Source: Candidatus Sungiibacteriota bacterium
GTDB taxonomy: Bacteria > Patescibacteriota > Minisyncoccia > Sungbacterales > SURF-37
Length of the DNA: 64,000 nucleotides
Direction: 5' to 3'
NCBI GenBank assembly: GCA_016186145.1
Contig: JACPMF010000002.1
Span: forward strand, 18,473 to 82,472
The notes below the pieces were generated by a model. That model saw only the letters and a program-made list of their open reading frames with translations. It searched no databases and was not told the origin of the DNA. Every line of letters starts with the position of its first letter. Position 1 is the first letter of the stretch. Made by a program: the position numbers and the translations under genes. Shown here in pieces: positions 12,165 through 55,026 of this stretch.

Positions 12165-12231
12165 TGTTGAAAGAAATTGAGAAATTAAGCAATGTACTAC
12201 TACTTTCTTAATTTCTTAATTTCTATTTTCT

Positions 12232-13338
12232 TCACGTAATGACTTCCCATGTGATTGGCTCGTATTTTTTTATTAATCGCCTCGCTTTTTTCCCAAGCAC
12301 ATTCTCATATTCTTCAGACGGCAGCCCTCCGGCATAGGCCTGCGGACGCATGGCGTAAAGCATATCAGCAACAACCATTGCTCCGGCAGAAATATCCTGG
12401 CCCGCCACAAGCGATTTTCGAAAGTATGGCCTAAAAACAGCCTCGTCCTCCTGTAAAACCTTCCCGCCGGAACCCATGCCGGCTTTTACAATCTCTTTTC
12501 CGAGATATTCGTTTTTCTTCTCCGGACTGCGTTCTAATTCGCGTATACCAGAAACAAGAGACCGCAATTCATCCGGCGTCATAGAAACCTTATGGTCCGC
12601 CCCCCACAGGTCGCGGGAAAATGAAAAGTGCTTTTCTATCACTTTAGCGCCCAAGGCAACCGCCGCAAACGCGGAATCAACACCGACTGAATGGTCGGAA
12701 AAACCAACAGGAATATTATACCTCTTTTTCAAAAAATCTATGGTGCCCAGATTGAGATGCCCGGGCGGGCAAGGATATTTTGATACGCAATGAAGTAAAA
12801 CCACTTGAGCGTCTCTCTGTTTAAGAAAGTCGATTGTTTTATCGAGTTCTTCAATCGTAGACATTCCTGAAGAAATAATCACGGGCTTTTTTGTCGATGC
12901 GAGGTAATCAAGAATGACGAAATCAAGAAGGTCGCCGGATCCAACCTTCCAAAGCTCCACGCCAAGCTCATTCAATTTTTTAGCCGCCCCTCTCGACATT
13001 GGCGTTGAGTGAAAAATTATGCCGAGCTCATCACAGTAAACTTTGAGCGGCCGCCAAAATTCATTAAGCGGCGTGGCATTTGTGTTTCGCGTAACCCAAG
13101 AATACCGATCGGATCCTTTGAAATGCGGGGAAACGACTTCGATATCCAGCTGTTCGTCTTCAACGTTATGCGTTTGGAATTTTACTGCATCGGCTCCTGC
13201 GTCTTTTGCCGCCCTAACTAGAGCTTTTGCGTTTTCAAGATACTCTGAAACCGGCCGCTCTTCTTCGGTTTGAATAAAATTTTTGCCGATCTCGGCTACA
13301 ATAAAAGTGCCCTTGTGTATTAAATCCCCTACTTTCAT
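12232..13338 (-). CDS. neuB: N-acetylneuraminate (nonulosonic acid) synthase, NeuB family, with C-terminal SAF domain
   Basis: NeuB TIM-barrel region (AKALVRAAKDAGADAVKFQTH) and a C-terminal antifreeze-like SAF domain. Confidence 0.8.
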   Translation of the reverse strand: MKVGDLIHKGTFIVAEIGKNFIQTEEERPVSEYLENAKALVRAAKDAGADAVKFQTHNVEDEQLDIEVVSPHFKGSDRYSWVTRNTNATPLNEFWRPLKVYCDELGIIFHSTPMSRGAAKKLNELGVELWKVGSGDLLDFVILDYLASTKKPVIISSGMSTIEELDKTIDFLKQRDAQVVLLHCVSKYPCPPGHLNLGTIDFLKKRYNIPVGFSDHSVGVDSAFAAVALGAKVIEKHFSFSRDLWGADHKVSMTPDELRSLVSGIRELERSPEKKNEYLGKEIVKAGMGSGGKVLQEDEAVFRPYFRKSLVAGQDISAGAMVVADMLYAMRPQAYAGGLPSEEYENVLGKKARRLIKKYEPITWEVIT

Positions 13339-16660: not shown

Positions 16661-17713
16661 ATGACGCGAACTATTTATATAGGTGAACGCCCGATAGGTG
16701 ATAATCATCCCTGTTTTATCATCGCCGAAGCGGGCGTGAATCATAACGGCGACCCGGAACTCGCAAAAAAACTCATTGCATCGGCGACAGAATGCGGAGC
16801 TGATGCCGTAAAATTCCAGAAACGAACCGTTGAGGATATTTTAATAAAAGCGGCCCTGGAAAAAACTTATGACAGCCCGACAGCTCTTGCGCCCACCTAC
16901 GGAGAGCACCGGAAAAAACTGGAACTTTCGAAAAACGCGTGGCAAGAATTGCGTGATTTTGCCAAAGAGAACAAAATAATTTTCTTTGCAAGCGCGTGGG
17001 ATCCAAAAAGCGCGGACTTTCTTGACGAACTCGGAACTCCGGTCTTCAAAACCGCATCAGCCGACCTTACCAATCTTCCACTCCTGGAACATATCGCCAA
17101 AAAAGGGAAACCTGTTATCATGTCAACCGGAATGAGCACTATCGAAGAAATTGACGAAGCGGTTGAAACGGTTCTTGCTAAAAATAAAAAAGTGATTTTG
17201 ATGCACTGCGTATCCGACTATCCCTGCTCCGAGGATAAGGTAAATTTAAAAATGATCGGCGTCTTGCGCGAACGCTACGGCCTGCCGGTAGGATATTCCG
17301 GACACGAAACCGGCGTTGCGATATCTGTTGCGGCGCGGGCGCTTGGCGCTGTCGCAATAGAAAAGCATTTCACCCTTGACCGAGCGACGATTGGTCCGGA
17401 TCACGCCGCCTCGCTCGAGCCGGAAGGACTACGCAGGGTCGTAAAATACATACGGGTTGCCGTTGACCCGGCAATGGGAGACGGGGTCAAAAAAATCACC
17501 GAGACCGAATTGAAACAAAGAGCAAAACTCGCCAAAAGTATCGCCGCAAGGGTTTCCATTCCAAAAGGCACGTTGATTTCCGCCGACATGCTTACCATCA
17601 AAGGCCCGGGCACCCACCTAAAACCTAAATATCTCAACGATCTAGTTGGCAAAACTGCTAAAGCCGATATTCTTGAAGACACGCTGGTTCCTATCGAAGC
17701 GCTTGAGTGGTAA
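16661..17713 (+). CDS. N-acetylneuraminate synthase family, second NeuB paralog with SAF domain
   Basis: CFIIAEAGVNHNGD, ADAVKFQKR, and a C-terminal SAF domain. Confidence 0.8.
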   Translation: MTRTIYIGERPIGDNHPCFIIAEAGVNHNGDPELAKKLIASATECGADAVKFQKRTVEDILIKAALEKTYDSPTALAPTYGEHRKKLELSKNAWQELRDFAKENKIIFFASAWDPKSADFLDELGTPVFKTASADLTNLPLLEHIAKKGKPVIMSTGMSTIEEIDEAVETVLAKNKKVILMHCVSDYPCSEDKVNLKMIGVLRERYGLPVGYSGHETGVAISVAARALGAVAIEKHFTLDRATIGPDHAASLEPEGLRRVVKYIRVAVDPAMGDGVKKITETELKQRAKLAKSIAARVSIPKGTLISADMLTIKGPGTHLKPKYLNDLVGKTAKADILEDTLVPIEALEW

Positions 17714-17769: not shown

Positions 17770-18981
17770 CTATTGCAGCTGGTCTGCCCTGATATAACTT
17801 CCCGCCTTAACCGTGGTCGCTGTCGAATTAGAAGTAAACTGAGCCCATTGCAAAGTCACATCTCCGGCCGTGCTTCCTACCACGACTGTGCCCTTAACAT
17901 GGATTACTACAGGAGCGTTTGCCCGAAGCGGTATTACCTGACTTGCCGTTCCTGAACTATTAAGTAGTTCTCCTTGTGTAGTTAGATTATTAGGAGAGGC
18001 AGCGATATACCCCAAAGTCATAGTTGCGCCGGAAGGAACAGTAAATGCAATCTTAAGATCGGGGTTAGAACTTGCACTGCTCGCAAATACCACCGCATCG
18101 ACGGTGTATGTCTGGTTTGCAGCCAATGTCAGCTTAAGCTCGTCGTCATTCTGAAGCGTAGTGCTGGAAGTAACAGATTCGTCGCTTGATTTACGCGTTT
18201 GTAGTGATACAACGACCGAAAATGGAACGTCAGTAGAAAATACTGCGCTATTTTGATTGGTCAAAGTATTCCCGTTTGAAGTTGAATCACTCAAACTGTT
18301 GTTCAGCTTCCAGTACCCCTGAAGGCCGGACTCGTTCCCAACAAGCTCGGTATTATAGTTATCTGCAATCTGCGCCGCAGTACGGGCAACATTCCAAACC
18401 CTCACATCGTCCATCTTCCCATCGAGATAAGCACTGTCATCATAATCTGCGTTTATATTTCCAATGTACAGAAGAGAAGTACCATTGCAAATAGAAGTGT
18501 CCAATCCGCTTTGTTGGGACCCTTGCGGTACTCCATTGACATAAAAATCAGCAGTCCCACCCGAAGCGGTGTAGACAACAGCGACATGGTACCAAACGCC
18601 AATACTCGGATTCCAGCTTACAGTCCCTGCTGTCGCAGAATTTGAGCAATTACTATCGGCCTCAAATTTAAGTTGGTAAGTCGTTGTATTATTGTACAGA
18701 TTAAAACGCCACGATCTTTGATTGCCGGTCAAAGTCATCTTAGAAATAAACTGCATCGCACGGCCTTCCGGCGGCAATGACTCAAACTTGACCCATGTCT
18801 CAAGTGTTAAATTGCCCGTCACAGAAAGCGATGCGCTATCAGCGGCCGTCAAGTACTGGCTTGAACCGGACTCAAGGTCTATTGAGTACGTATTCCCTGC
18901 ATATGCAACGCCAAACGAACCAAACAAGGCCGTGGCAAGCAAAAGAAAAAGCGTACATACGACGAAGGATGTTCGCTTCAT
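17770..18981 (-). CDS. Secreted concanavalin-A-like lectin (LamG) domain protein
   Basis: N-terminal signal peptide (FVVCTLFLLLATALFGSFGVAYA). LamG-like segment: LTLETWVKF...WYHVAVVY...DDVRVWN. Ser/Thr-rich. Confidence 0.6.
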   Translation of the reverse strand: MKRTSFVVCTLFLLLATALFGSFGVAYAGNTYSIDLESGSSQYLTAADSASLSVTGNLTLETWVKFESLPPEGRAMQFISKMTLTGNQRSWRFNLYNNTTTYQLKFEADSNCSNSATAGTVSWNPSIGVWYHVAVVYTASGGTADFYVNGVPQGSQQSGLDTSICNGTSLLYIGNINADYDDSAYLDGKMDDVRVWNVARTAAQIADNYNTELVGNESGLQGYWKLNNSLSDSTSNGNTLTNQNSAVFSTDVPFSVVVSLQTRKSSDESVTSSTTLQNDDELKLTLAANQTYTVDAVVFASSASSNPDLKIAFTVPSGATMTLGYIAASPNNLTTQGELLNSSGTASQVIPLRANAPVVIHVKGTVVVGSTAGDVTLQWAQFTSNSTATTVKAGSYIRADQLQ

Positions 18982-32190: not shown

Positions 32191-32235
32191 AAATTAAAAA
32201 GCCGCGAAAGAAACCTCGCGGCGGCACATTTTTTT
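32191..32235. terminator. Bidirectional intrinsic terminator
   Basis: An A-rich run, hairpin gccgcga-aagaaacc-tcgcggc (32201-32222), then T7. Terminates minus-strand gene 32234..33145. Confidence 0.6.
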
Positions 32236-33145
32236 AAATGCCCTTTATTCCATGTACCTTAAAACGCCTGGAAAATCGGGGAACTTCCCTCTCTGTATTT
32301 TTCTCTTGCGCGAGGCCTAAAAGTGCTTGATAATTTTCGATATTGTTTGCTGCGACAACATTAGTAGCGTTGTTAACCGTAATCGGCTGTTTATAGGTGT
32401 CCGAAATAATGCCGCCCGCCTCAATGATAATCGGGGCAGCGGGCAAATTATCCCATGGCTTGTTGTTTAAAGAAACAACTCCCGCAGTGCGCCGCGCTCT
32501 CCCGCGATCGCGCGCGAGAGAAACAAACGACACGGCACAACAAAGATTAACGCGATAACCCCCAGCGTGTGGTCCGATATTCGACATTTCTCTCTGCATC
32601 AGACGTGATGGTCCTTCAAAAAGCACAAATGAATCCTCAAGCTTTGCAGCGGGATCAACAAAAATTCTTTCAAGAAAAACCCCATCATCAACCCATGCGC
32701 CGCACCCGAGCCCTGCAAAATACATTTCACGGCGTCCGCCGTATGCGTATGGAAAGTAGATAAACCCGTATACCGGAACAGCCTCTACCACATACGCTCC
32801 CATAATTCCGAAAATCGGCCAGCCCGCGGCGAGGTTATGCGTGCCATCAACCGGATCAATCACCCAATACCTTCTTTCAGGAGGCGGCCAGGAATGCTGG
32901 CGCTCTTCGCTCACGACCGGACACCCAAATTGCTTCTCCAAAAAACCGGAAAGCATCTGATCAACCATCACATCCTTTACGGTGACGAAATCGCCCTTAT
33001 TCTTTTCTTTTGCAGTGATATCTCTGCCGCCATCTCCTTTCGGAAATACCCTATCGGCAATTATGGTCAGCATATCCTGAATACGGACAGAGACCAAAGA
33101 GAAATTATCAGCCGTAATTGCCTCAATTGCCGTTGCCATCCCCAA
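32234..33145 (-). CDS. Inositol monophosphatase family protein, probable 3'(2'),5'-bisphosphate nucleotidase (CysQ-like)
   Basis: WVIDPVDGT motif (the DPIDGT of the IMPase superfamily). Adjacent to the sulfate-activation gene. Confidence 0.6.
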   Translation of the reverse strand: MGMATAIEAITADNFSLVSVRIQDMLTIIADRVFPKGDGGRDITAKEKNKGDFVTVKDVMVDQMLSGFLEKQFGCPVVSEERQHSWPPPERRYWVIDPVDGTHNLAAGWPIFGIMGAYVVEAVPVYGFIYFPYAYGGRREMYFAGLGCGAWVDDGVFLERIFVDPAAKLEDSFVLFEGPSRLMQREMSNIGPHAGGYRVNLCCAVSFVSLARDRGRARRTAGVVSLNNKPWDNLPAAPIIIEAGGIISDTYKQPITVNNATNVVAANNIENYQALLGLAQEKNTEREVPRFSRRFKVHGIKGI

Positions 33146-33288
33146 CCTCCGTTTCGCAAACTCACATATTTAGGTTTTGAATGAGCGAATAATTTATAAC
33201 ACGGCTATACGATCTGTGTCAACTCGCTCGGATATTGAAAGTTGCAACTAAACAACGATCATATATTAATTGTGCCTTTCCACTCGCA

Positions 33289-36057
33289 TCAAGAAATCAA
33301 ATAGTTTAAGAGCCTCTCAATGTTTTGTTCTATCCCAAACTTTTCATTGTCAATTTTAATATCCGGACTGGTTGGAGCCTCGTATGGATTTGTTGCGGCA
33401 ACGCCGATAAAATTCGATATCTCCCCGGCAAGGGCTTTCTTGTAAAGTCCCTTGGGGTCGCGCTCAATGCACTTCTCAAGTGAAGCGTTCACATACAACT
33501 CCAAAAATCCACCACCAATGATTGTTCGCGCCATTGCCCGATCTTCCCGATACGGCGATATTATCGGGACAAGTACAAAGTCATGCTCCCCTGCCCTCTC
33601 TCGTGCAAGTTCGGCAATCAAACGGTTATTCTCGCGTATGTCTTCGCGCGAAAAACTGAGGTGTTTGTTCTGGCCGCTTCTTATGGCATCCCCGTCAAGA
33701 ACGCACACGCTTTTCCCGCGCGACTCAAGTTCATTTTTTAATTTTTCAGCGATAGTTGATTTGCCGGACCCGGAAAGCCCCGTGAACCAAATAACGGTCC
33801 CTTTCCGATTTTCATTTTTGACAAAAACTTCCTCCCGACCGCTCACCGCTTCAGCGATGATTTCTGAAATCTCCGGCCTCATAAACCACTCGGGCGGACG
33901 TTCGCCCAGTTCAAATATTTTCCGAGCCTCGGTGCCGCTTATGGAAAGCTTGTCTGACGGGTCATGTTCCGGGCTTTCTGAAGCATGCATGTGATCTCCG
34001 GTTTTCTTTGAATAAAATACTTCCCCGAACCTTATCGGTTTAATTTTCAAATCAGGAAATTCATCAAAAATTTTATGCGATGCGTCGGCAGGGTAAAAAT
34101 TACCGACACCCGTATGATCCCGCCCTACGACAAAATGGCTGCACCCGAAATTCTGCCTGCAAATTGCGGTAAAAAGCGCCTCGCGAGGACCGGCATATCT
34201 TGAATACGTGTTAAAGGTCGCGAATACAACCTTATTTTCCGGATAAATATCATTCATCATCCGTTGATAACTTTTAATAATATATGCGGCATGGTAATCT
34301 CCCGCCTTTTTCTTACCAACCACCGGATGCACAAAAAGCCCGTCGCAATTCTCCTCTTCCAGGGCTTTTAGCTGAATATATTCATGGCTTCTATGAATTA
34401 CATTCCGCGTATGGAAGCCAACGACTCGCGACCAGTGCTTTTCCGCGAAAAGCCGGCGGACCTGGCGTGGCGCCAACGCATAATCCGAAAACTCCGCCCT
34501 TCTGCGGCGAAACAAATCGATTTTTCCGCCCACCAATATCGGGAGCATCGCCATAACCTGTTTTACGCCCGGATGACTCTCATCCAATGTGCCGTAAAGG
34601 CGCTTGGCAAAAAGTTCTTTATCAAACGCGTATATCTCATCAACACGCAAAACGGCAAAAGCGTTTCCTTGTTTGTCCGCAAGTACTACTTCGCGCCCCG
34701 GAATTAGTTTTCTCGCGGCTTCTTCAGAAACGTCTAAAACAATCGGAAGGGGCCAAATCGTTCCGTTCGCAAGACGCATCGTTTCGAGAACGCTCTCACA
34801 ATCTTTTTTTCCCATAAATCCTTCGAGCGGGCTGAACGTTCCAAACGCAATCTGTTCCGCGTCCATCTGCCGCGTTTCGTCGACTAAAATCTTCGGTACG
34901 GTTTCAAGAAACTTTTGCGCCGGCGGTTTTAACAAAATTCTTTCTACCAAGGATCCGCCATGAGGCGGTACAAGAACCGACCCGTAATCGCCCGAGAACA
35001 AATAACCGTCTTTTTCAAGGTGATTTGCAAGCTCAACCGCGGCGAGTTGGTATTCCCGACGGCTTGGGAGAGAAACGGCCTCTCCAACAAGCTTCTGCAT
35101 CATAGAAACGCATTCGAACGGGTACTTCCCTATCGCCGTCTCGGCCGAAAGGGCGACCCCGGCAGCCCCATCCAAAATCGTTGCAATAACATCGTGCGCC
35201 TCCGCCCGCGTTGGCCTTTGTTTTTCCACCATTGTTTCTAAAAGGTTTGTTGCGACAAAAACCGGTTTTCCGTGTTGGTGCGCGTGAGACATAATGATTT
35301 TCTGGGCAAATGGGATTTTCTCAATCGGTATTTCTTTTGAAAGATCGCCGCGATCAATAAGAAGCGCATCGGATTTTTGAATTATTTCGTCAAGGTTTTT
35401 CAAACCATCAACGCATTCGATCTTTGAAATAATTTTCATCCTCCCTTTTGTGGCATCCCGAACCGTGTCGACAAAATCCCCGGAACGCATAAAAGAAGCG
35501 GCAATATATCCGACACCTTCTTGCAGGCCGATCGCAATCGACTGGTAATCTTTTTCCGATAGCGGAGGCAGATCATATGCCTTCGGCATCGCTGAATCAA
35601 TAATTACAGCTTTGTTATTTCCGATACGGCCGGCACTCATCGCTTTTGCGAGAACAAAACCGTCTCCCGCATGGCTTGTATCTGCGACACGAAGAATCAA
35701 AGACTCAAAATCTATATGCAGCATATCCCCGGGCTCGAGCTGGCTTACAATATGCGAAGGGCGAAGAGAGATATTCTGTTGGTCGCCGACAATGTCTGCG
35801 GCATGAATACGCACCTCTTCGTCCTCAGAGAACATGATGGAATTCCCAGAAAGGCGGCCTGAACGGATCTGAGAACCTTCGGTATCGACAATAAATGGAA
35901 TGCCGATTTTTTTTGCAAGCGCGATAAAATAGCGTAGATCATCTACGCTTGAGTGAGACATGTTGATGCGAACGAAATCAACGCCTTTGGCCTTGAGTCT
36001 TCGAAGGCCTGCTTCGGTACGGACGGAAGGACCGAGGGTTACAATGAGTTTAACCAT
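33289..36057 (-). CDS. Tri-domain fusion: pyruvate-kinase-like barrel + sulfate adenylyltransferase (ATP sulfurylase) + adenylylsulfate kinase
   Basis: N-terminal pyruvate-kinase-like region: LIVTLGPS, DTEGSQIRSG, LIDRGDLSKEIP, ILDGAAGVALSAETAIGKYP. Middle ATP-sulfurylase region: HTRN, GRDHTG. C-terminal APS kinase: GLSGSGKST, LDGDAIR. Start at ATG 36057 (MVKLIV). Confidence 0.8.
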   Translation of the reverse strand: MVKLIVTLGPSVRTEAGLRRLKAKGVDFVRINMSHSSVDDLRYFIALAKKIGIPFIVDTEGSQIRSGRLSGNSIMFSEDEEVRIHAADIVGDQQNISLRPSHIVSQLEPGDMLHIDFESLILRVADTSHAGDGFVLAKAMSAGRIGNNKAVIIDSAMPKAYDLPPLSEKDYQSIAIGLQEGVGYIAASFMRSGDFVDTVRDATKGRMKIISKIECVDGLKNLDEIIQKSDALLIDRGDLSKEIPIEKIPFAQKIIMSHAHQHGKPVFVATNLLETMVEKQRPTRAEAHDVIATILDGAAGVALSAETAIGKYPFECVSMMQKLVGEAVSLPSRREYQLAAVELANHLEKDGYLFSGDYGSVLVPPHGGSLVERILLKPPAQKFLETVPKILVDETRQMDAEQIAFGTFSPLEGFMGKKDCESVLETMRLANGTIWPLPIVLDVSEEAARKLIPGREVVLADKQGNAFAVLRVDEIYAFDKELFAKRLYGTLDESHPGVKQVMAMLPILVGGKIDLFRRRRAEFSDYALAPRQVRRLFAEKHWSRVVGFHTRNVIHRSHEYIQLKALEEENCDGLFVHPVVGKKKAGDYHAAYIIKSYQRMMNDIYPENKVVFATFNTYSRYAGPREALFTAICRQNFGCSHFVVGRDHTGVGNFYPADASHKIFDEFPDLKIKPIRFGEVFYSKKTGDHMHASESPEHDPSDKLSISGTEARKIFELGERPPEWFMRPEISEIIAEAVSGREEVFVKNENRKGTVIWFTGLSGSGKSTIAEKLKNELESRGKSVCVLDGDAIRSGQNKHLSFSREDIRENNRLIAELARERAGEHDFVLVPIISPYREDRAMARTIIGGGFLELYVNASLEKCIERDPKGLYKKALAGEISNFIGVAATNPYEAPTSPDIKIDNEKFGIEQNIERLLNYLIS

Positions 36058-36063
36058 GATGAA

Positions 36064-36162
36064 TAATGCTGAATTATAAATGCTGAATTCTGAATAATAC
36101 GATAAAGTCATCTGCTACCAACATCGTTCAATAATTAGCATTTGGCATTCAGCATTTAGCAT
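36064..36162. repeat. Empty inverted-repeat pair of the ATGCTGAAT family
   Basis: aATGCTGAATtataaATGCTGAATtctgaat ... 45-bp spacer ... agcatttggcATTCAGCATttagcatt. No cargo ORF. The right arm encodes the C-terminus of the upstream methyltransferase. Confidence 0.5.
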
Positions 36163-37012
36163 TAAGTATGACTGTGAGCATCTTATCTTTAGGCTCCGAA
36201 ACCCTTTTATACGTCAGTCCAAGTCTTTGCGCCAAAAATTGCAAACTGGCATGGGAAAAAATGTACGGGTGATACGGATTCATTTGATCAAAAACAAGCA
36301 AATTCGGCGTCTGAATATAAATAATACCGCTCTTCAGAAGACATTCTTTTGCAAACCTAACTATGCTTACCGGGTCAATGGTATTTTCCAGAGAATGCGA
36401 AAAGACAATCGCGTCAAATTTCTCGCCCCGTTTGCCGATATTTTCCAGGTCTTCCGCATAACTTCCCAGAAGTTCAATGTTAAAGTCCTTAATGGTTTTT
36501 TGAGCTTCATCAGACGGCTCTACGGCAAAAACTTTGCACTGGTATTTTTTTTTAAATTCCGAAAGTGTTACGCCAAAACCGCAACCAACCTCTAAAACGC
36601 GAGAGTCCGCGCCAAGACTAATCGCGCTTGCAACAACCGGAATTATTGTTTTCGCCCTCTGCTCGCGATGTTTTTCCAGGCGATTTTCTAAACCCTCCTT
36701 GGGATCCCACTTCTTTTCATCATCCCACTTGTATTTCCCCGATTGCCACATCTGGCCTTCTTTATGGAAGCCGGCATTTCTTATTTTTTGCTGCCAGAAC
36801 AAATTCTTATAAAAATCCTTGTATGATTCCCTGGTCGGCCGCGGATTCATAAACTTCAAACCGCACGCGGGACAAAAAACATACCAAAAATCAACCCCGA
36901 ACCATTCAATCTTTCCATTGGGAACCATCGCTGCCCCATCGCAAAAAGGGCACGCGTCCAATGCCTCGAAATCAAAAGTGGCACTTTGATAATTATCCTC
37001 ATTCCTGTTCAT
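36149..37012 (-). CDS. Class I SAM-dependent methyltransferase with N-terminal zinc ribbon
   Basis: CPFCDG...CPACG ribbon; VLEVGCGFG motif I. Probable start at ATG 37012 (MNRNED). Confidence 0.65.
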   Translation of the reverse strand: MNRNEDNYQSATFDFEALDACPFCDGAAMVPNGKIEWFGVDFWYVFCPACGLKFMNPRPTRESYKDFYKNLFWQQKIRNAGFHKEGQMWQSGKYKWDDEKKWDPKEGLENRLEKHREQRAKTIIPVVASAISLGADSRVLEVGCGFGVTLSEFKKKYQCKVFAVEPSDEAQKTIKDFNIELLGSYAEDLENIGKRGEKFDAIVFSHSLENTIDPVSIVRFAKECLLKSGIIYIQTPNLLVFDQMNPYHPYIFSHASLQFLAQRLGLTYKRVSEPKDKMLTVILNAKC

Positions 37013-37922
37013 ATTTGTTCCTGATATCAAACCTTTCAACAATTTTTTTCCGATAATCGAGAGCCATCCGGTCAACTTCGTCTGCCAAGTCCTCGCTTAA
37101 GTGATTTTTCCAGTCGCCGACAACTCCTTTTCGAAATCCGCTTTTAACATTTTCTTCCCCCCGTCCCCTGCCGGCGGAATGGCTGTCCCGCGCAGTCTGT
37201 TTTTCGAATGACGCTTCTTCAATCATATACGCCAGAATCTTGGGTGAAATCGGCATGCCTAAATAGCGAACCATATCGCCTACCACACCGTATGTATACT
37301 CATCAAGCGCCTCATAAGTTAAACAGTGAACCGGACCTTGATACGCAAGGAGCGCTTGGTATTCGGGTATTATCCGCTCCTCCAGGTAACCAATGGCAAA
37401 CTCACGATCGATAACCGCATCTTCCTTTCTGCCCTTTCGAAGCATGTTAAAATGCCACGATACAATTTTATCTTTAGGATCTCTTAAAATACAGAGCTTC
37501 TTTATCTCCGGATAAAGCGAATCAATAAAATCAAGATGAAAAACATACGCCGGCGTTGCCTCACCCACAATTTTTTTGTCGCCTCTCTGCATATCGCAAA
37601 TCTCGCCGTAGCGTTCTTGAAATATCCGATATACCTCTGTTTTTGGCAGCTCATCTTTAAAGTGCACCAAATCAGAAAATACCTTGTTGTACTTTACCGC
37701 AAAATCGGAAAACGGCCGAACAAACTTCCTTTCGTCCCCACCCTCTAAACTCGCGAGGGTATTGAAGAAATGCATCTCGCCGACTCGCTGCTCCCCAATT
37801 TCGTTATAAAAGGGAAGCGTGGGAAAGCATGCAATGTCCGGATGATTGTCTAAAAGCGCTGCAACCCAATGAGTGCCGCTCCGCTCCATACCAACTATTA
37901 AAAAGTCTGGACGATAATGCAT
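36999..37922 (-). CDS. PAPS-dependent sulfotransferase
   Basis: Predicted 5'-phosphosulfate-binding loop GMERSGTHW and 3'-phosphate-binding RDPKDKIVSW. Confidence 0.7.
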   Translation of the reverse strand: MHYRPDFLIVGMERSGTHWVAALLDNHPDIACFPTLPFYNEIGEQRVGEMHFFNTLASLEGGDERKFVRPFSDFAVKYNKVFSDLVHFKDELPKTEVYRIFQERYGEICDMQRGDKKIVGEATPAYVFHLDFIDSLYPEIKKLCILRDPKDKIVSWHFNMLRKGRKEDAVIDREFAIGYLEERIIPEYQALLAYQGPVHCLTYEALDEYTYGVVGDMVRYLGMPISPKILAYMIEEASFEKQTARDSHSAGRGRGEENVKSGFRKGVVGDWKNHLSEDLADEVDRMALDYRKKIVERFDIRNKYEQE

Positions 37923-37948
37923 GATTATCAGTTATTGATTGTTATTCG

Positions 37949-38224
37949 TCATTTAGGGTGCCTCCCGCCGGTATCTATATACGTTCTAACATAAAGTACG
38001 AGACAAACGGCGAGAAAAACCATGGCGAGTATATATTTAACTTGTAATGGCCGTTGAGCAATTATGGTTGCGTACGCGAGCGCTATAATATTGGCGACAA
38101 AAGAGATAAGGAGCAACAGGAAGCTTAACCCCTCAACCGTTTTGGTTCTGTAAGTTTTAATGATTTGCGGAATATAACAAAGTGTAAATAAGGTTGTCGC
38201 TGTCCAACCAAGCAATTCTGCCAT
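37949..38224 (-). CDS. PQ-loop/SemiSWEET-like small membrane protein
   Basis: 91 aa, three predicted TM helices, PQ motif (CYIPQIIKTYRTK) in helix 1. Confidence 0.5.
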   Translation of the reverse strand: MAELLGWTATTLFTLCYIPQIIKTYRTKTVEGLSFLLLLISFVANIIALAYATIIAQRPLQVKYILAMVFLAVCLVLYVRTYIDTGGRHPK

Positions 38225-38236
38225 AGCTATAATAGT

Positions 38237-39367
38237 TTAAACTCTTAAAACCGTTACGCCCGTATTCCCATACGCATCAGCTGCGCCGACCGCAGTCCGA
38301 CAAGCGCCTTCGGGAATTGTAAATAACCATCCGCTTCCTTTTTTTTCAACATCTTCACGTCTCACATTTCCATCTTTGTACTCAACCGCAACAAACGGCA
38401 TATCCCCAAAAATGTCGTGGTTTGCCCAAACCGATACATTGCAACCATCGCGTTCCACCCGTAACGAGAGATCTTTTGGTATCGGCTCTATATAACTTCG
38501 AATCGCATCAAGCGCATTGGAAAATTTATACCGGATGCCGGACATCCGCGATCTTTTCTCGACCATCCCGCAAACCATCGCGAACTCATCGGAAATACTC
38601 TTATAATAATCGTGGCTGTGAAAAGAAAAAAGCGACAACCCCGTTTCTTTTGCCTCGCGAAAAGCCCCCTCAACGTCTTCTTCCTGCAAACTTCCCGAAC
38701 CGCCTTTTGCCGCAACAGGCAAAGAGCGCGCGATCAGTCGCTTCATGGTTCCCGGGTGTTGATAATCTCCAATGCTCGGATGATACGGCTGCCAATTCGC
38801 CGGAGCCCTTGACCAATCGCAGAACTCCCGCTTCGCCGGGGCAATGTTCGAAAAATCAAAGGGAATCCACCGTTCAAGCCAACGAGAACTTTCATCATTC
38901 TCGACATATTTGCCGGCCCGATATACGGCCGGAAAAAATCCGAAATCAAGCATTCGTTTTGCGATAACGTACTCATGCCAGCGAGAATCATTCCAGTCGT
39001 CATTCCATCCCCACGCGCCGTTTTTTGGAGGATGATGATAGTGCCAATAAATTTCGTCACCGCTCTCTCGAAGGCGGCTATCGGTTAAAATGTTCGCGCG
39101 ATAAAAATTCCATACAGCATGAAGCCCGCCGGCGTGCCCTCTTCTTTTAAACCCCGGATCATCCGACGAAAAACCCGCCCAGTCAAGTATTCCCCAGCTA
39201 TACTTTAAATATCCGCCAAAAGAGTCTCTGAATTTCTTTCTCAATCCAACAGTCAAATTTTCTATTGCCGCGCCGAGAGAATTCCAATTATCAAACAAAT
39301 CACTCCGCCCGGTTGTAGGGCCTTCAGTATCAATGATGGGAACAATATATACTATTGGCTCATTCAT
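38237..39367 (-). CDS. Hypothetical protein (Trp/His-rich, possible carbohydrate-active enzyme)
   Basis: No recognisable family signature: WHYHHPP, HSHDYY. Confidence 0.3.
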   Translation of the reverse strand: MNEPIVYIVPIIDTEGPTTGRSDLFDNWNSLGAAIENLTVGLRKKFRDSFGGYLKYSWGILDWAGFSSDDPGFKRRGHAGGLHAVWNFYRANILTDSRLRESGDEIYWHYHHPPKNGAWGWNDDWNDSRWHEYVIAKRMLDFGFFPAVYRAGKYVENDESSRWLERWIPFDFSNIAPAKREFCDWSRAPANWQPYHPSIGDYQHPGTMKRLIARSLPVAAKGGSGSLQEEDVEGAFREAKETGLSLFSFHSHDYYKSISDEFAMVCGMVEKRSRMSGIRYKFSNALDAIRSYIEPIPKDLSLRVERDGCNVSVWANHDIFGDMPFVAVEYKDGNVRREDVEKKGSGWLFTIPEGACRTAVGAADAYGNTGVTVLRV

Positions 39368-53352: not shown

Positions 53353-54870
53353 TCAAATCCGTAAAAACAAGAATCCGGCAGCGACAATAACGCCAATAGC
53401 CGCGGCAACGGCAAAAAACCAAAGCGGGGAAAAACCACCTGAAGCCAAAGGACTGGCCGCCTCTTTTAAAGAAGATGATTCCTGCTGATAGCCGGGTCCA
53501 ACGCCGTTACTGTCTTTATCGTCAATAACAGGAGCAACCAAAAGAGAGTCGCGCCCATCCACTGGAACATCGCTTTCGAGTGAAAGTTTACCTTGTCGGC
53601 CTTCGGCAGATACGCTTTCCGGTAAAACCACGGCGGTATTTGGCACCAAAACCGCGGGGCCGGGAACAATGTATACGCCGGGGGTCAACGATTTTGTTTT
53701 CACAAACTTTTGCCCCCCGCCTGACGCGCGCGTAAAACTCTCCTCCATAAGGAGGGGTTCTTTAAAATCACCGTAATCAATAATTTCCTCCAACGCATTC
53801 TTCAATACTATGTATGAACCGTTTTGAAAAAGGTTAGTAACGGCATTTGGAAAAACAAGGGCTGACTTCGGCTCAATGAACGTATCTTTTTGAATCACAA
53901 AAGCAGAATCGCCGCTTTCAAAACGAAACCCGCCGAGATCAAGCCGATAAGCAGTACCATTGTAAACTTCGAGAAAACCACGCTCGCCAGACTTTGCCTC
54001 GCTGATTATTATATTTGGGCTTACTACGGTGATTTTGATATAATCGGCGCCGGCATATTCACCGGAGGAAACATTCAGACTTGCAGTATAACTGCCTGGA
54101 AAATAATAAACATGCGATACGATTTTTCCTTCTTTTGTTGTGCCATCGCCGAAGTTCCAGGAAAATCTCGCCGAAATCAGCGGCTCACCGTTTATGCCGT
54201 CGGCACTTCCCCGAAACTCCACCAATGAGCCCTGAACCGCGGTGCGGTCTTTACCGGCATACGCTTTCAAAGATGGCAGTGGCGTCACGCCGGATGAAAC
54301 CGCGACCTCTTCCGATGGCAGATCTTGCGGCGAATCATCGGGCGGCGCGCTTTCACTATTCTCGTCTGAAGCATTTGCGGCGCGCGGAGTAGAGACGGCA
54401 GTAATCCACCCCGAAGATACGCGCTGCATAGTTTCTTTGGTAGTATTATCACCTGCAGGCCAGCCGGCGGATGCGTCAACTTGATCGACTGCTGCTCCGA
54501 TGTCATTTTTGAGTATCAACACCTCGCCGCTATTCGAAAGCGCGCCGGTATAAATACAGTCTGCCGCAACATTCGGCACGGTGTCGTCATTTGTTCTTTC
54601 CAATAAAAAATATCCGCCTGCCGACAGAACGGTATTCGCGCATTTATCCGAATTGATAGTAAGGCCGTATTCGCCGCCTCGCCACTCAAGGCGCCAGCCG
54701 GAAAGGTCAACCGGCGAACCCGCATCATTCTTCAACTCAACCCATTCATCGGCCGTAGAAACACCTGTTCCCATCCATGCGACCTCGCTAATCACCACCG
54801 AAGCCAATGCCGATTGGGCCAAAGCCAACACCGCCAGCGCCAATAAAACATAAAGCCATGCACTCCGCAT
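53353..54870 (-). CDS. Surface protein with signal peptide, two lamin-tail domains, a PKD domain and a C-terminal TM anchor
   Basis: Lamin-tail segments: ISEVAWMG...DEWVELKN...DLSGWRL and ISEAKSG...FLEVYNG. PKD segment: WNFGDGT...HVY. ATG at 54870 (MRSAWL). Confidence 0.55.
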   Translation of the reverse strand: MRSAWLYVLLALAVLALAQSALASVVISEVAWMGTGVSTADEWVELKNDAGSPVDLSGWRLEWRGGEYGLTINSDKCANTVLSAGGYFLLERTNDDTVPNVAADCIYTGALSNSGEVLILKNDIGAAVDQVDASAGWPAGDNTTKETMQRVSSGWITAVSTPRAANASDENSESAPPDDSPQDLPSEEVAVSSGVTPLPSLKAYAGKDRTAVQGSLVEFRGSADGINGEPLISARFSWNFGDGTTKEGKIVSHVYYFPGSYTASLNVSSGEYAGADYIKITVVSPNIIISEAKSGERGFLEVYNGTAYRLDLGGFRFESGDSAFVIQKDTFIEPKSALVFPNAVTNLFQNGSYIVLKNALEEIIDYGDFKEPLLMEESFTRASGGGQKFVKTKSLTPGVYIVPGPAVLVPNTAVVLPESVSAEGRQGKLSLESDVPVDGRDSLLVAPVIDDKDSNGVGPGYQQESSSLKEAASPLASGGFSPLWFFAVAAAIGVIVAAGFLFLRI

Positions 54871-54906
54871 GGCTTTATTCGTAGCCGAGTTGTAGAAACT
54901 CGTCAA

Positions 54907-55026
54907 TCCCACACATAACTGGACATGTTTTTGTTTTCAGTCACGAAAGAATTGGTAGCGATTTGTCAGACTAAAAAGTATGTTATGATTTAAAACACGG
55001 GACATTATGTCAAGTTATGTGTGGGA
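54907..55026. mobile_element. Non-coding MITE-like element of the cccacacataact TIR family
   Basis: tcccacacataact (54907-54920) and agttatgtgtggga (55013-55026). Flanked by tcaa on both sides. Confidence 0.5.

What the first reader, a model, noticed from the sequence alone, without database searches (positions are those of the whole stretch)
32234..38224. Sulfation module built around an unusual pyruvate-kinase-like / ATP-sulfurylase / APS-kinase tri-domain fusion
The 923-aa protein (33289-36057) starts with a recognisable pyruvate-kinase-like barrel: DTEGSQIRSG, LIDRGDLSKEIP, ILDGAAGVALSAETAIGKYP. It continues into ATP sulfurylase (HTRN, GRDHTG) and ends with an APS kinase P-loop (GLSGSGKST).
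It is flanked by a CysQ-like PAP phosphatase, a PAPS-type sulfotransferase (GMERSGTHW, RDPKDKIVSW), a zinc-ribbon methyltransferase and a SemiSWEET-like small protein, all inside a glycan locus.
Sat-CysC fusions are established, but I do not know of a pyruvate-kinase-like barrel fused ahead of Sat-CysC. A fused kinase that regenerates ATP could pull the unfavourable sulfurylase reaction forward. This implies sulfated (and possibly methylated) surface glycans in this organism.
Basis: partly seen in the sequence, partly recalled or inferred. Interest (0 to 1): 0.7.

Follow-up and report, generated by a model that had tools for sequence, protein, structure and literature searches.

The report
PAPS synthase with built-in pyruvate kinase
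A candidate-phyla bacterium encodes one 922-residue protein that joins a pyruvate-kinase-type module to the two enzymes that make the sulfate donor PAPS; this design is widespread but I found no paper describing it, and it probably uses phosphoenolpyruvate to turn ADP back into ATP on the spot.

Summary
The minus-strand gene 33289-36057 (922 aa) contains a full pyruvate-kinase A+B barrel without the PK C-domain, then PUA_2, ATP-sulfurylase and APS-kinase domains. It is not an artefact. The 120 best homologues, and all 86 loci fetched from more than ten phyla, carry PK and ATP sulfurylase in one reading frame. These include cultured Flavobacterium sp. Leaf82.

The PK module belongs to a distinct subfamily. 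All 12 canonical catalytic and ligand residues are kept. Six neighbouring positions carry a fixed signature of their own (DTEGSQIR / RGDLS / ATNLLE / LSAETA). This subfamily is fused to Sat, to CysC or to both, and stand-alone copies in all three places inspected lie in APS-kinase/sulfotransferase operons. No PK with the canonical signature was fused to Sat.

The flanks are a sulfotransferase, a zinc-ribbon methyltransferase, a PQ-loop protein and an IMPase-family phosphatase, followed by a terminator. The whole window is a glycan island.

Best reading, inferred and not assayed: PEP-driven recycling of ADP to ATP beside APS kinase and sulfurylase, which relieves the known enzyme-ADP-APS dead-end inhibition. 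Nine full-text searches found no paper on this architecture. Databases call it only "sulfate adenylyltransferase" or "pyruvate kinase". I rate it a new variant of a known kind.

The parts
33289..36057 (-). Gene for the 922-aa PK-like / PUA / ATP sulfurylase / APS kinase fusion protein. An alternative upstream ATG at 36111 would give 940 aa.
   Evidence: ORF. It is 100% identical to P0001 (NCBI MBI2639322.1, Ca. Sungbacteria). Domains. AF2 model has pLDDT 90.0 and pTM 0.78.
35107..36054 (-). Pyruvate-kinase A+B barrel module with no C-domain. It carries the sulfation-type signature DTEGSQIR / RGDLS / ATNLLETM / LSAETA.
   Evidence: Pfam PK E 1.4e-68, covering positions 4-328 of 328. PDB pyruvate kinases about 1e-51. 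33% identity to PykF residues 4-332. Catalytic residues are invariant in the family.
34507..34968 (-). PUA-like N-terminal domain of ATP sulfurylase.
   Evidence: Pfam PUA_2 E 6.8e-49.
33850..34485 (-). ATP sulfurylase catalytic domain, with HTRN-x2-HRSH, GRDHTG and ISGTEAR motifs.
   Evidence: Pfam E 5.7e-77. NF003166 scores 432 bits against a cut-off of 387. Closest solved structure is the M. thermolithotrophicus Sat 8a8d, E 6.3e-96.
33349..33804 (-). APS kinase domain, with P-loop GLSGSGKST plus LDGD, SPYREDR and KGLYKKA motifs.
   Evidence: Pfam E 9.8e-51. TIGR00455 scores 183 bits against a cut-off of 138.7. Aligns with the Aquifex Sat/APS kinase 2gks at E 5.7e-105.
32234..33145 (-). IMPase-family phosphatase, the probable PAP (3'-phosphoadenosine 5'-phosphate) phosphatase. 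It is the last gene of the operon.
   Evidence: Pfam Inositol_P E 1.8e-26. CysQ and HisN models score below their cut-offs. DPVDGT and WD motifs are visible in the translation. An Inositol_P+APS_kinase fusion lies next to PK-Sat in L094. The gene is adjacent in L002. Present in 11 of 40 full-flank loci.
32201..32222 (-). Terminator-like hairpin (9 pairs, 6 of them G-C, followed by a T-run) 12 nt after the IMPase stop codon. It marks the 3' end of the sulfation operon.
36149..37075 (-). Class I SAM methyltransferase with an N-terminal CxxC...CxxC zinc ribbon. The likely start is the ATG at 37012.
   Evidence: Methyltransf_23 E 9.3e-16, with a weak Lar-type zinc-ribbon hit. The same gene order is seen in L001 and L094.
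36999..37922 (-). PAPS-dependent sulfotransferase, cytoplasmic, with no signal peptide visible.
   Evidence: Sulfotransfer_1 E 2.2e-23. 5'-PSB motif GMERSGTHW and 3'-PB motif RDPKDKIVSW. PDB sulfotransferases score down to 6.5e-8. A sulfotransferase lies within 10 kb in 27 of 40 full-flank loci.
37949..38224 (-). 91-aa single PQ-loop (SemiSWEET-type, three transmembrane helices) membrane protein. It is a recurrent but not exclusive companion of the module.
   Evidence: PQ-loop E 3.8e-16. Adjacent to PK-Sat in 11 of 86 loci and fused to APS kinase on two independent contigs (L003/L004/L034 and L041). Two of three homologues sampled elsewhere lie in unrelated contexts.
38237..39367 (-). 376-aa protein of unknown family, directly upstream in the same transcription direction. 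It is syntenic only with L001.
   Evidence: No Pfam or NCBIfam hit. No PDB hit at E<=1. Homologue in L001 at E 1.4e-179. The single-sequence AF2 model is unusable, pLDDT 32.5.

Best explanation
The gene encodes a self-contained PAPS synthase with its own ATP-regenerating module.

Proposed reactions:
- The ATP sulfurylase domain makes APS and PPi from ATP and sulfate.
- The APS kinase domain makes PAPS and ADP from APS and ATP.
- The N-terminal pyruvate-kinase-type module has an A-domain barrel and a B-domain lid and no allosteric C-domain. It converts the ADP back to ATP using phosphoenolpyruvate.
- Net reaction: sulfate + ATP + PEP -> PAPS + PPi + pyruvate.

Expected effects:
- Local removal of ADP prevents the enzyme-ADP-APS dead-end complex that throttles APS kinases.
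- It also removes ADP as an APS mimic at the sulfurylase site and keeps local ATP high. The unfavourable sulfurylase step is therefore pulled indirectly.

Fate of PAPS: the adjacent cytoplasmic sulfotransferase uses it on a glycan precursor that the neighbouring methyltransferase probably also modifies. The IMPase-family enzyme at the end of the operon removes the inhibitory product PAP.

What is shown: the domain identities, the conservation of catalytic residues, the conservation of the fusion, and the association of this PK subfamily with sulfate-activation genes. What is inferred: the PK activity itself, its coupling to PAPS synthesis, and the identity of the sulfated product.
For: 1. Domains are complete and score strongly.

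2. All 12 PK catalytic and ligand positions are invariant in 116-120 of 120 homologues. In PykF numbering these are R32, N34, S36, D66, T67, R73, K156, K220, E222, D246, T278 and E314. They are also kept in 103 of 118 subfamily representatives, counting T67S as conservative. This includes the ADP/ATP phosphate ligands R73 and K156.

3. The fusion is conserved. The best 120 of 1936 hits all carry PK+PUA_2+Sat. 288 species-level genomes gave hits, and all 86 fetched loci have PK and Sat in one ORF. Taxa include CPR, DPANN, Chloroflexota, Acidobacteriota, Planctomycetota, Omnitrophota, NC10 and Flavobacterium.

4. Other fusions link the PK subfamily to each partner separately. These are PK+APS_kinase without Sat (P0126, P0228), PK+short Sat (P0139) and NTP_transferase+PK+Sat (P0086).

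5. Stand-alone barrel-only copies of about 335 aa sit between an APS kinase gene, a small HIGH-motif nucleotidyltransferase gene and a sulfotransferase gene in all three places inspected. One of them (L087/L088) has no sulfotransferase called in the stretch read.

6. Among the 150 best 50%-identity representatives, 118 carry the subfamily signature and 81 of those are fused to Sat and/or CysC. The 12 with the canonical PK signature are all unfused.

7. Where CysC is not fused it is encoded next door. The PK module therefore does not replace APS kinase.

8. Biochemical precedent exists. Without PK/PEP regeneration, human PAPSS1 yields almost no PAPS because of the E-ADP-APS dead-end complex (PMC9885120). 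That complex is a hallmark of APS kinases, and ADP binds the sulfurylase in the same way as APS (PMC3734648).

9. Nature already fuses a helper enzyme to Sat to shift its equilibrium, namely inorganic pyrophosphatase (PMC2275785).
Against: - No enzymatic data exist for any member.
- The most common and most constant fusion partner is the sulfurylase, which does not produce ADP. CysC is often a separate gene.
- The subfamily has fixed substitutions beside the active site. K68 becomes E/Q, P70 becomes S/A, E71 becomes Q (rabbit E117, next to the K+ site), G248 becomes S, Q279 becomes N and G313 becomes A. These could mean a changed cation requirement, changed regulation, or a different donor or acceptor.
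- The PK-PUA linker is variable in sequence and has lower model confidence. Nothing therefore indicates a channel; the coupling may be proximity only.
- I could not check whether the same genome also has a canonical pyruvate kinase. Only one PK-like gene lies in the 64-kb window.
Confidence: 0.6

Rival explanations
1. The PK-like module transfers phosphate, but not simply from PEP to ADP. It would use another acceptor or donor tied to sulfate activation. Examples are another nucleotide, or an energy-coupling role for the adenylyl-transfer step analogous to the CysN GTPase. The subfamily would then be a new enzyme activity.
For: - Six active-site-adjacent positions are fixed to non-canonical residues across the subfamily, including the position next to the K+ site.
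- The constant partner is the adenylyltransferase, either Sat or, in marine operons, a 116-120-aa HIGH-motif nucleotidyltransferase whose gene overlaps the PK-like gene.
- The TIGR01064 pyruvate-kinase equivalog score is below its cut-off (280 against 306).
Against: - Every residue known to bind PEP, Mg2+, K+ and the ADP/ATP phosphates is retained.
- APS kinase is fused or within 10 kb in 65 of 86 loci (29 of the 40 with full flanks), so no step of the classical route is missing there.
- No alternative chemistry is suggested by any known PK-family member.
Confidence: 0.17
2. The PK-like module is catalytically idle. It would serve as a regulatory (PEP- or nucleotide-sensing) or oligomerisation domain, as the APS-kinase-like C-terminal domain does in fungal ATP sulfurylase.
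For: - Sat families are known to recruit degenerate enzyme domains as allosteric modules. The P. chrysogenum Sat 1i2d/1m8p is among the closest structures.
- Loss of the PK C-domain removes the usual tetramer interface.
Against: - The whole catalytic set is invariant over sequences that are only 45-60% identical overall and come from more than ten phyla. This is not expected for a pseudo-enzyme.
- The mobile B-domain lid is retained.
Confidence: 0.1
3. The PK part is simply the organism's housekeeping glycolytic pyruvate kinase that became joined to Sat-CysC by a neutral gene fusion, a gene-calling error or an assembly error. It would have no specific role in sulfation.
For: - CPR genomes are small and often carry few paralogues.
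- JGI annotation calls several of these proteins 'pyruvate kinase'.
- I could not search the rest of this genome for a second PK.
Against: - The continuous ORF is identical in two independent sources.
- The same architecture occurs in 86 of 86 loci, including large genomes such as a Flavobacterium and 5.8-Mb and 10.4-Mb Acidobacteriota and Chloroflexota contigs.
- The subfamily has its own signature and lacks the C-domain everywhere.
- Stand-alone members lie in sulfation operons, not glycolytic contexts.
Confidence: 0.05
4. The sulfurylase runs in the dissimilatory direction (APS + PPi -> ATP + sulfate). The module would serve energy conservation rather than biosynthesis of a sulfate donor.
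For: Sat-type sulfurylases work in reverse in sulfur oxidisers. The Allochromatium and Riftia-symbiont enzymes are among the structural relatives.
Against: - APS kinase is fused, and the PAPS-dependent sulfotransferase and PAP-phosphatase-type genes lie in the same operon inside a glycan locus.
- No APS reductase was seen among the genes called or annotated in the window or in the places whose gene lists were returned.
Confidence: 0.02

Closest known systems
Bacterial bifunctional ATP sulfurylase-APS kinase (Aquifex aeolicus, PDB 2gks; NCBIfam NF004040)
   Same: Same order PUA - Sat - APS kinase. Residues 360-922 align end to end at E 5.7e-105 with about 35% identity. The catalytic motifs of both enzymes are present.
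   Different: It has no N-terminal PK module. The window protein scores 447 bits against the equivalog cut-off of 669. The family has FHTRN where all solved Sats shown have FQTRN.
Canonical pyruvate kinase (E. coli PykF, M. tuberculosis PYK, PKM2; Pfam PF00224 + PF02887)
   Same: A-domain barrel and B-domain lid over the full model. All catalytic, Mg2+, K+, PEP and ADP-phosphate ligands are present. Identity is 33-38%.
   Different: There is no C-terminal allosteric and tetramerisation domain. Six fixed substitutions lie beside the active site, including Q at the rabbit E117 position. The module is fused to, or encoded in the same operon as, sulfate-activation enzymes.
ATP sulfurylase-pyrophosphatase and APS kinase-Sat-pyrophosphatase fusions of stramenopiles and haptophytes (PMC2275785, PMC3734648)
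   Same: A helper enzyme is fused to Sat to shift an unfavourable pathway by removing a by-product.
   Different: That helper removes PPi by hydrolysis. Here the helper would remove ADP and regenerate ATP from PEP. Those fusions are eukaryotic. PMC2275785 does not mention pyruvate kinase at all.
CysDN, the GTPase-coupled sulfate adenylyltransferase
   Same: Sulfate activation is coupled to a second energy-releasing reaction carried out by a partner module.
   Different: The adenylyltransferase has an unrelated fold (PAPS_reduct family) and the coupling is through a GTPase conformational cycle. One related locus (L002) carries both CysDN and the PK-Sat-CysC fusion.
Metazoan PAPS synthase (PAPSS1/2) with an added PK/PEP regeneration system in vitro (PMC9885120)
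   Same: The same three activities together. In vitro, PAPS is 'practically missing' without PK and PEP because of ADP/APS dead-end inhibition.
   Different: The domain order is APS kinase then Sat. PK is a separate commercial enzyme supplied by the experimenter and is not part of the polypeptide.

Membership tests
Pyruvate kinase (EC 2.7.1.40; Pfam PF00224) | A-domain (beta/alpha)8 barrel with inserted B-domain lid, matched over the full model | tested here: met
   PF00224 E 1.4e-68, positions 4-328 of 328. PDB pyruvate kinases about 1e-51. The AF2 model shows barrel and lid strands at pLDDT about 90. Foldseek aligns about 340 columns at 3.4-3.6 A rmsd to trypanosomatid PKs.
Pyruvate kinase (EC 2.7.1.40; Pfam PF00224) | Catalytic and ligand residues R32, N34, S36, D66, T67, R73, K156, K220, E222, D246, T278, E314 (PykF numbering; the residue roles are recalled from the PK literature) | tested here: met
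   All are present in the window protein and invariant in 116-120 of 120 homologues. The same string occurs in 103 of 118 subfamily representatives, allowing T67S.
Pyruvate kinase (EC 2.7.1.40; Pfam PF00224) | C-terminal alpha/beta domain (PK_C, PF02887) that carries the effector site and the tetramer interface | tested here: not met
   No PK_C hit at E<=0.01. The PUA_2 domain follows the barrel after a linker of about 45 residues. Stand-alone relatives are only about 325-350 aa.
Pyruvate kinase (EC 2.7.1.40; Pfam PF00224) | Canonical motifs DTKGPEIR or DLQGPKIR, RGDLG, ATQMLESM, LSGETA, and the NCBIfam equivalog score | tested here: not met
   The window has DTEGSQIR, RGDLS, ATNLLETM and LSAETA. 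TIGR01064 scores 280.4 bits, below the cut-off of 306.4.
Pyruvate kinase (EC 2.7.1.40; Pfam PF00224) | PEP + ADP -> pyruvate + ATP activity | not testable with these tools
   Needs an enzyme assay.
ATP sulfurylase, Sat type (PF14306 + PF01747) | PUA-like plus catalytic domain above curated cut-offs | tested here: met
   NF003166 scores 432.4 against 387. TIGR00339 scores 360.4 against 322.95. 8a8d matches at E 6.3e-96.
ATP sulfurylase, Sat type (PF14306 + PF01747) | Active-site motifs QxRN, HxxH, GRDHxG, ISGTxxR | tested here: inconclusive
   HRSH, GRDHTG and ISGTEAR are present. The first motif is HTRN, with H in place of Q. This H is invariant in the family (A1 invariant H549), whereas all four solved Sats aligned have Q.
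APS kinase (CysC; PF01583, TIGR00455) | Domain above the curated cut-off, with the P-loop and the LDGD, SPY..R and KGLYKKA motifs | tested here: met
   TIGR00455 scores 183.2 against 138.7. The motifs are visible in the translation and in the alignment to 2gks.
PAPS-dependent sulfotransferase (PF00685), gene 36999-37922 | Sulfotransfer_1 domain with the 5'-PSB and 3'-PB PAPS-binding motifs | tested here: met
   83.4 bits against a cut-off of 22. GMERSGTHW and RDPKDKIVSW are present. The acceptor was not identified.
CysQ 3'(2'),5'-bisphosphate nucleotidase, gene 32234-33145 | Equivalog-level match to CysQ models | tested here: not met
   TIGR01331 scores 53 bits against 228.8. The best NCBIfam hit is HisN at 85.5 bits against 275. 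Only IMPase-superfamily membership is shown (PF00459, 93.7 bits against 27). A PAP-phosphatase role is inferred from the Inositol_P+APS_kinase fusion in L094 and from recurrent adjacency.
SemiSWEET transporter, gene 37949-38224 | Single PQ-loop/MtN3 three-helix unit, and the NCBIfam SemiSWEET model | tested here: inconclusive
   PQ-loop scores 59 bits against 22, which is met. SemiSWEET_2 scores 39.2 bits against 80, which is not met. The substrate is unknown.

The most novel reading that the evidence does not exclude
The C-domain-less 'sulfation-type' PK proteins would be a dedicated and previously unrecognised third component of prokaryotic sulfate activation. They comprise 118 of the 150 best 50%-identity representatives found with this PK domain. 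In this reading they form a PEP-powered energy-coupling subunit that works with whichever adenylyltransferase is present. That partner is Sat, or in marine bacteria a 116-120-aa HIGH-motif nucleotidyltransferase that would then be a minimal ATP sulfurylase. The component would let cells with low energy charge, such as CPR, DPANN and marine bacteria, make PAPS. It would play the role that the CysN GTPase plays for CysD.
Probability: 0.25. Interest if true: 0.8.

Novelty: new variant of a known kind. Interest (0 to 1): 0.64.

Why it matters
- It would be the first natural PAPS synthase found to carry its own ATP-regeneration step. Enzymologists add exactly this trick (PK plus PEP) to make PAPS synthesis work in vitro, and PAPS supply limits enzymatic production of sulfated glycans such as chondroitin sulfate (PMC9885120).
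- It defines a large pyruvate-kinase subfamily that is not a glycolytic enzyme. Some pipelines label these proteins 'pyruvate kinase'. Metabolic reconstructions of CPR and DPANN genomes that score glycolysis by a PK hit could therefore be misled (example of such scoring: PMC12361377).
- It points to sulfated, methylated and probably nonulosonic-acid-containing surface glycans in ultra-small episymbiotic bacteria and archaea. Their cell-surface chemistry is almost unknown.
- A cultured carrier, Flavobacterium sp. Leaf82, makes the hypothesis directly testable.

Tried and rejected
- Artefact or frameshift: rejected. The ORF is continuous and the architecture is conserved.
- PK-like module replaces APS kinase in the 750-aa forms: rejected. 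CysC is encoded immediately downstream in every two-domain locus whose gene list I inspected.
- PQ-loop protein as an obligatory module component: not supported. Two of three homologues on long contigs lie in unrelated neighbourhoods, although it is adjacent to or fused with module genes in 11 of 86 loci.
- TauE as the general sulfate importer of the module: found only in L006 and in the marine stand-alone loci.
- Viral carriage: none in IMG/VR.
- Homology of the marine mini-nucleotidyltransferase to Sat: the profile comparison was not significant (hhalign probability 0.4). Only the shared HxGH and ISxTxxR superfamily motifs and weak Pfam hits (2e-4) support it.
- Structure of the 376-aa unknown protein: the single-sequence AF2 model failed (pLDDT 32.5) and there is no PDB or Pfam hit.
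- The afdb50 fold library was unavailable.
- Literature: nine full-text searches found no description of a PK-Sat fusion. Subscription-only papers were not searched.
- I could not test whether this genome also has a canonical PK.


Full report
**1. What is there**

On the minus strand, an ORF runs from 36111 to 33289. The start that NCBI annotates, and that homologues share, is the ATG at 36057. This gives 922 aa, 100% identical to MBI2639322.1 from a Candidatus Sungbacteria MAG, which NCBI names only 'sulfate adenylyltransferase'.

Pfam finds four domains in series:
- A pyruvate-kinase barrel, E 1.4e-68, covering positions 4-328 of the 328-position model.
- PUA_2.
- ATP-sulfurylase, E 5.7e-77.
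- APS_kinase, E 9.8e-51.

There is no PK_C domain. NCBIfam agrees: the Sat and APS-kinase models score above their cut-offs, and the pyruvate-kinase equivalog scores just below its cut-off at 280 against 306 bits.

Against solved structures:
- The first 330 residues match pyruvate kinases at about 1e-51.
- The last 563 residues match the Aquifex bifunctional Sat/APS kinase at 5.7e-105.
- The Sat part alone is closest to the Methanothermococcus thermolithotrophicus enzyme, 6.3e-96.
- No solved chain spans both the PK and Sat halves.

An AlphaFold2 model of the whole protein is confident, with pLDDT 90.0 and pTM 0.78. Its weaker stretches include residues 351-360 in the linker between the barrel and the PUA domain, where the 10-residue mean is 70.

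**2. It is not an artefact and not rare**

- A search of 5.8 billion proteins gave 1936 hits at E<=1e-10. The best 120 all carry PK+PUA_2+Sat.
- About 78 of those 120 also have the APS-kinase domain (about 880-965 aa). About 40 are two-domain forms of 745-794 aa.
- A scan of one genome per GTDB species found 288 loci.
- In the 80 loci kept, plus six more, PK and Sat lie in one reading frame in 86 of 86. All three enzymes lie in one frame in 31 of them.
- Carriers include many CPR lineages and DPANN archaea (Woese-, Nano- and Pacearchaeota). They also include Chloroflexota, Acidobacteriota, Planctomycetota, Omnitrophota, NC10, Gemmatimonadota and Actinomycetota MAGs.
- Two cultured strains carry it: Flavobacterium sp. 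Leaf82 and [Flexibacter] sp. ATCC 35103, at 46% identity over residues 1-921.
- None was found in viral contigs.

**3. The PK module is a distinct subfamily**

I aligned 120 homologues with E. coli PykF.
- Twelve positions are invariant or nearly so: R32, N34, S36, D66, T67, R73, K156, K220, E222, D246, T278 and E314. By my recollection of the PK literature, these bind PEP, Mg2+, K+ and the nucleotide phosphates, or act in catalysis.
- Six neighbouring positions are fixed to other residues: K68 to E/Q, P70 to S, E71 to Q, G248 to S, Q279 to N and G313 to A.
- E71 corresponds to rabbit E117 beside the K+ site. The E117K rabbit mutant appears among the fold-search matches as PDB 7r6y.

An exhaustive HMMER search with the PK domain alone, followed by motif typing, gave:
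- 118 of the 150 best 50%-identity representatives carry this signature.
- 81 of those are fused to Sat and/or CysC, 26 are barrel-only proteins of 380 aa or less, and 11 are longer.
- The 12 hits with the canonical signature (DTKGPEIR or DLQGPKIR, RGDLG, ATQML, LSGETA) are all unfused and appear only near the bottom of the list.

Pfam confirms direct PK+APS_kinase fusions without Sat (P0126, P0228), a PK+short-Sat form (P0139) and a PK+CBS form (P0151). One protein adds a sugar-phosphate nucleotidyltransferase domain in front of PK-Sat.

**4. Gene context**

- Where CysC is not fused, it is the next gene (L001, L005), or it is fused to a PQ-loop protein (L003, L041) or to an IMPase-family domain (L094).
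- In 40 loci with at least 8 kb on both sides, a sulfotransferase lies within 10 kb in 27, CysC in 29 and an IMPase-family gene in 11.
- Stand-alone barrel-only PK-like genes from three clusters about 60% identical to each other all sit in the order APS kinase, 116-120-aa HIGH-motif nucleotidyltransferase, PK-like. TauE precedes this in two of the three places and Sulfotransfer_1 follows in two. NeuB lies downstream in all three.
- In Flavobacterium the fusion follows a 2442-aa NRPS. The module therefore serves different sulfated products in different organisms.

**5. The window's own module**

Reading 5' to 3' on the minus strand:
- A GT4 glycosyltransferase.
- A 376-aa orphan protein.
- The PQ-loop protein (37949-38224).
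- The sulfotransferase (36999-37922).
- The zinc-ribbon methyltransferase (36149-37075, probably starting at 37012).
- The tri-domain enzyme (33289-36057).
- The IMPase-family gene (32234-33145).
- A strong terminator-like hairpin at 32222-32201.

L001 and L094 show nearly the same order.

The rest of the 64-kb window is a glycan island. It contains:
- GT2 and GT4 transferases.
- A PMT-like transferase.
- Wzx- and Wzy-type proteins.
- An initiating sugar transferase.
- Three TagF-like proteins.
- Two NeuB synthases and two CMP-transferases.
- Epimerases, dehydratases and a DegT aminotransferase.

PykF finds only this one PK-like gene in the window.

**6. Most likely mechanism**

The conserved ADP/ATP and PEP ligands argue that the module still catalyses PEP + ADP -> pyruvate + ATP. 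APS kinase is the ADP producer in PAPS synthesis. Three points from the literature bear on this:
- APS kinases are throttled by an enzyme-ADP-APS dead-end complex (PMC3734648).
- ADP binds ATP sulfurylase in the same pose as APS (PMC3734648).
- With human PAPSS1 in vitro, PAPS is 'practically missing' unless a PK/PEP regeneration system is added (PMC9885120).

A tethered PK would do this locally. The net reaction would be sulfate + ATP + PEP -> PAPS + PPi + pyruvate.

The pull on the sulfurylase is indirect, through removal of APS and ADP and supply of ATP. A precedent for fusing a helper enzyme to Sat exists in the pyrophosphatase fusions of stramenopiles and haptophytes (PMC2275785).

I put this reading at about 0.6, because nothing has been assayed. 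The fixed substitutions near the K+ and PEP pocket, and the constant pairing with the adenylyltransferase rather than with the kinase, leave room for altered chemistry or coupling (about 0.17). Lesser alternatives are a non-catalytic regulatory role (about 0.1), an incidental housekeeping PK (about 0.05) and reverse, dissimilatory operation (about 0.02).

**7. Comparison with what is known, and novelty**

Every domain belongs to a known family, and the Sat-CysC half is an ordinary bacterial-type bifunctional enzyme. The new elements are:
- The PK module.
- Its loss of the C-domain.
- Its private active-site signature.
- Its consistent association with sulfate activation.

Nine full-text searches found no paper describing it. 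The 2008 survey of Sat fusions does not mention pyruvate kinase. Public databases hold the sequences under generic automatic names.

I therefore class it as a new variant of a known kind. It is moderately to highly interesting and testable in a cultured Flavobacterium.

Noticed in passing
L087 3782-4132, L089 1604-1963, L091 7642-8004 (marine metagenome and MAG contigs): In operons with the stand-alone PK-like gene, the place of ATP sulfurylase is taken by a 116-120-aa HIGH-motif nucleotidyltransferase. It has GRFQPFHxGH and ISATxIRK motifs, scores above the Pfam CTP_transf_like cut-off, and gives weak ATP-sulfurylase hits down to 2e-4. Its gene overlaps the PK-like gene by 4 nt and follows APS kinase. 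It may be a minimal sulfate adenylyltransferase. The hhalign comparison to Sat was not significant.
   Followed up: partly
L003/L034 2391-3311, L041 about 12230-13037, L094 9384-10718: Further fusions occur around the module. PQ-loop+APS kinase fusions (about 270-306 aa) occur on two independent contigs. An Inositol_P+APS kinase fusion (444 aa) lies directly after PK-Sat. The latter supports a PAP-phosphatase role for the window's IMPase-family gene. The former hints at a membrane-tethered or transport-linked APS kinase.
   Followed up: partly
L075 1810-12778 (Flavobacterium sp. Leaf82, NZ_LMMA01000008.1): In this cultured strain the tri-domain enzyme (925 aa, WP_056247316.1) lies just downstream of a 2442-aa NRPS (Pfam: two Condensation, two AMP-binding and two PP-binding stretches, then a thioesterase). 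A 301-aa protein without a Pfam hit lies between them. This suggests a sulfated non-ribosomal peptide rather than a glycan.
   Followed up: partly
L002 3048-12841: One CPR-type genome (a 1.03-Mb contig) carries CysH-like, CysD and CysN genes, an extra stand-alone APS kinase, and the PK-Sat-CysC fusion side by side. Two different sulfate-activating systems therefore sit in one locus.
   Followed up: no
L006 2975-7000 (P0010, 1341 aa): A single called gene reads PUA-Sat-APS kinase followed by PK-PUA-Sat, next to a TauE-family anion transporter. This is either a tandem duplication fused in frame or a gene-calling read-through.
   Followed up: no
window 38237-39367 (-): A 376-aa protein with no Pfam, NCBIfam or PDB match lies between a GT4 gene and the PQ-loop and sulfotransferase genes. 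Its only homologue among the 94 fetched loci is the syntenic gene in L001 (E 1.4e-179). The single-sequence AlphaFold model failed (pLDDT 32.5).
   Followed up: partly
window 12232-13338 (-) and 16661-17713 (+); also L002, L087, L089-L091, L094: NeuB-type nonulosonic-acid synthases and CMP-transferases recur near PK-type sulfation modules, both here and in unrelated organisms. This raises the possibility that sialic-acid-like sugars are the sulfated or methylated targets. NeuB also consumes PEP.
   Followed up: no
window 33850-34485 (-), residue H549 of the 922-aa protein: The family-wide ATP-sulfurylase motif is FHTRN. The four solved Sats that were aligned all have FQTRN. From memory, this Gln contacts the sulfate group in yeast Sat. 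The consequence is unknown.
   Followed up: partly
window 53353-54912 (-), 17770-18981 (-) and 61113-63959 (-): The island also encodes a lamin-tail-domain plus PKD protein, a Laminin_G_3 (concanavalin-like) protein and a 948-aa ORF without any Pfam hit. These are candidate surface proteins that may carry the glycan.
   Followed up: no
(annotation issue, not a locus): JGI names several fused and barrel-only members 'pyruvate kinase', while NCBI names the fusions 'sulfate adenylyltransferase'. Studies that score glycolysis in Patescibacteria by a PK orthologue hit (for example PMC12361377) could be counting this sulfation-type PK.
   Followed up: no
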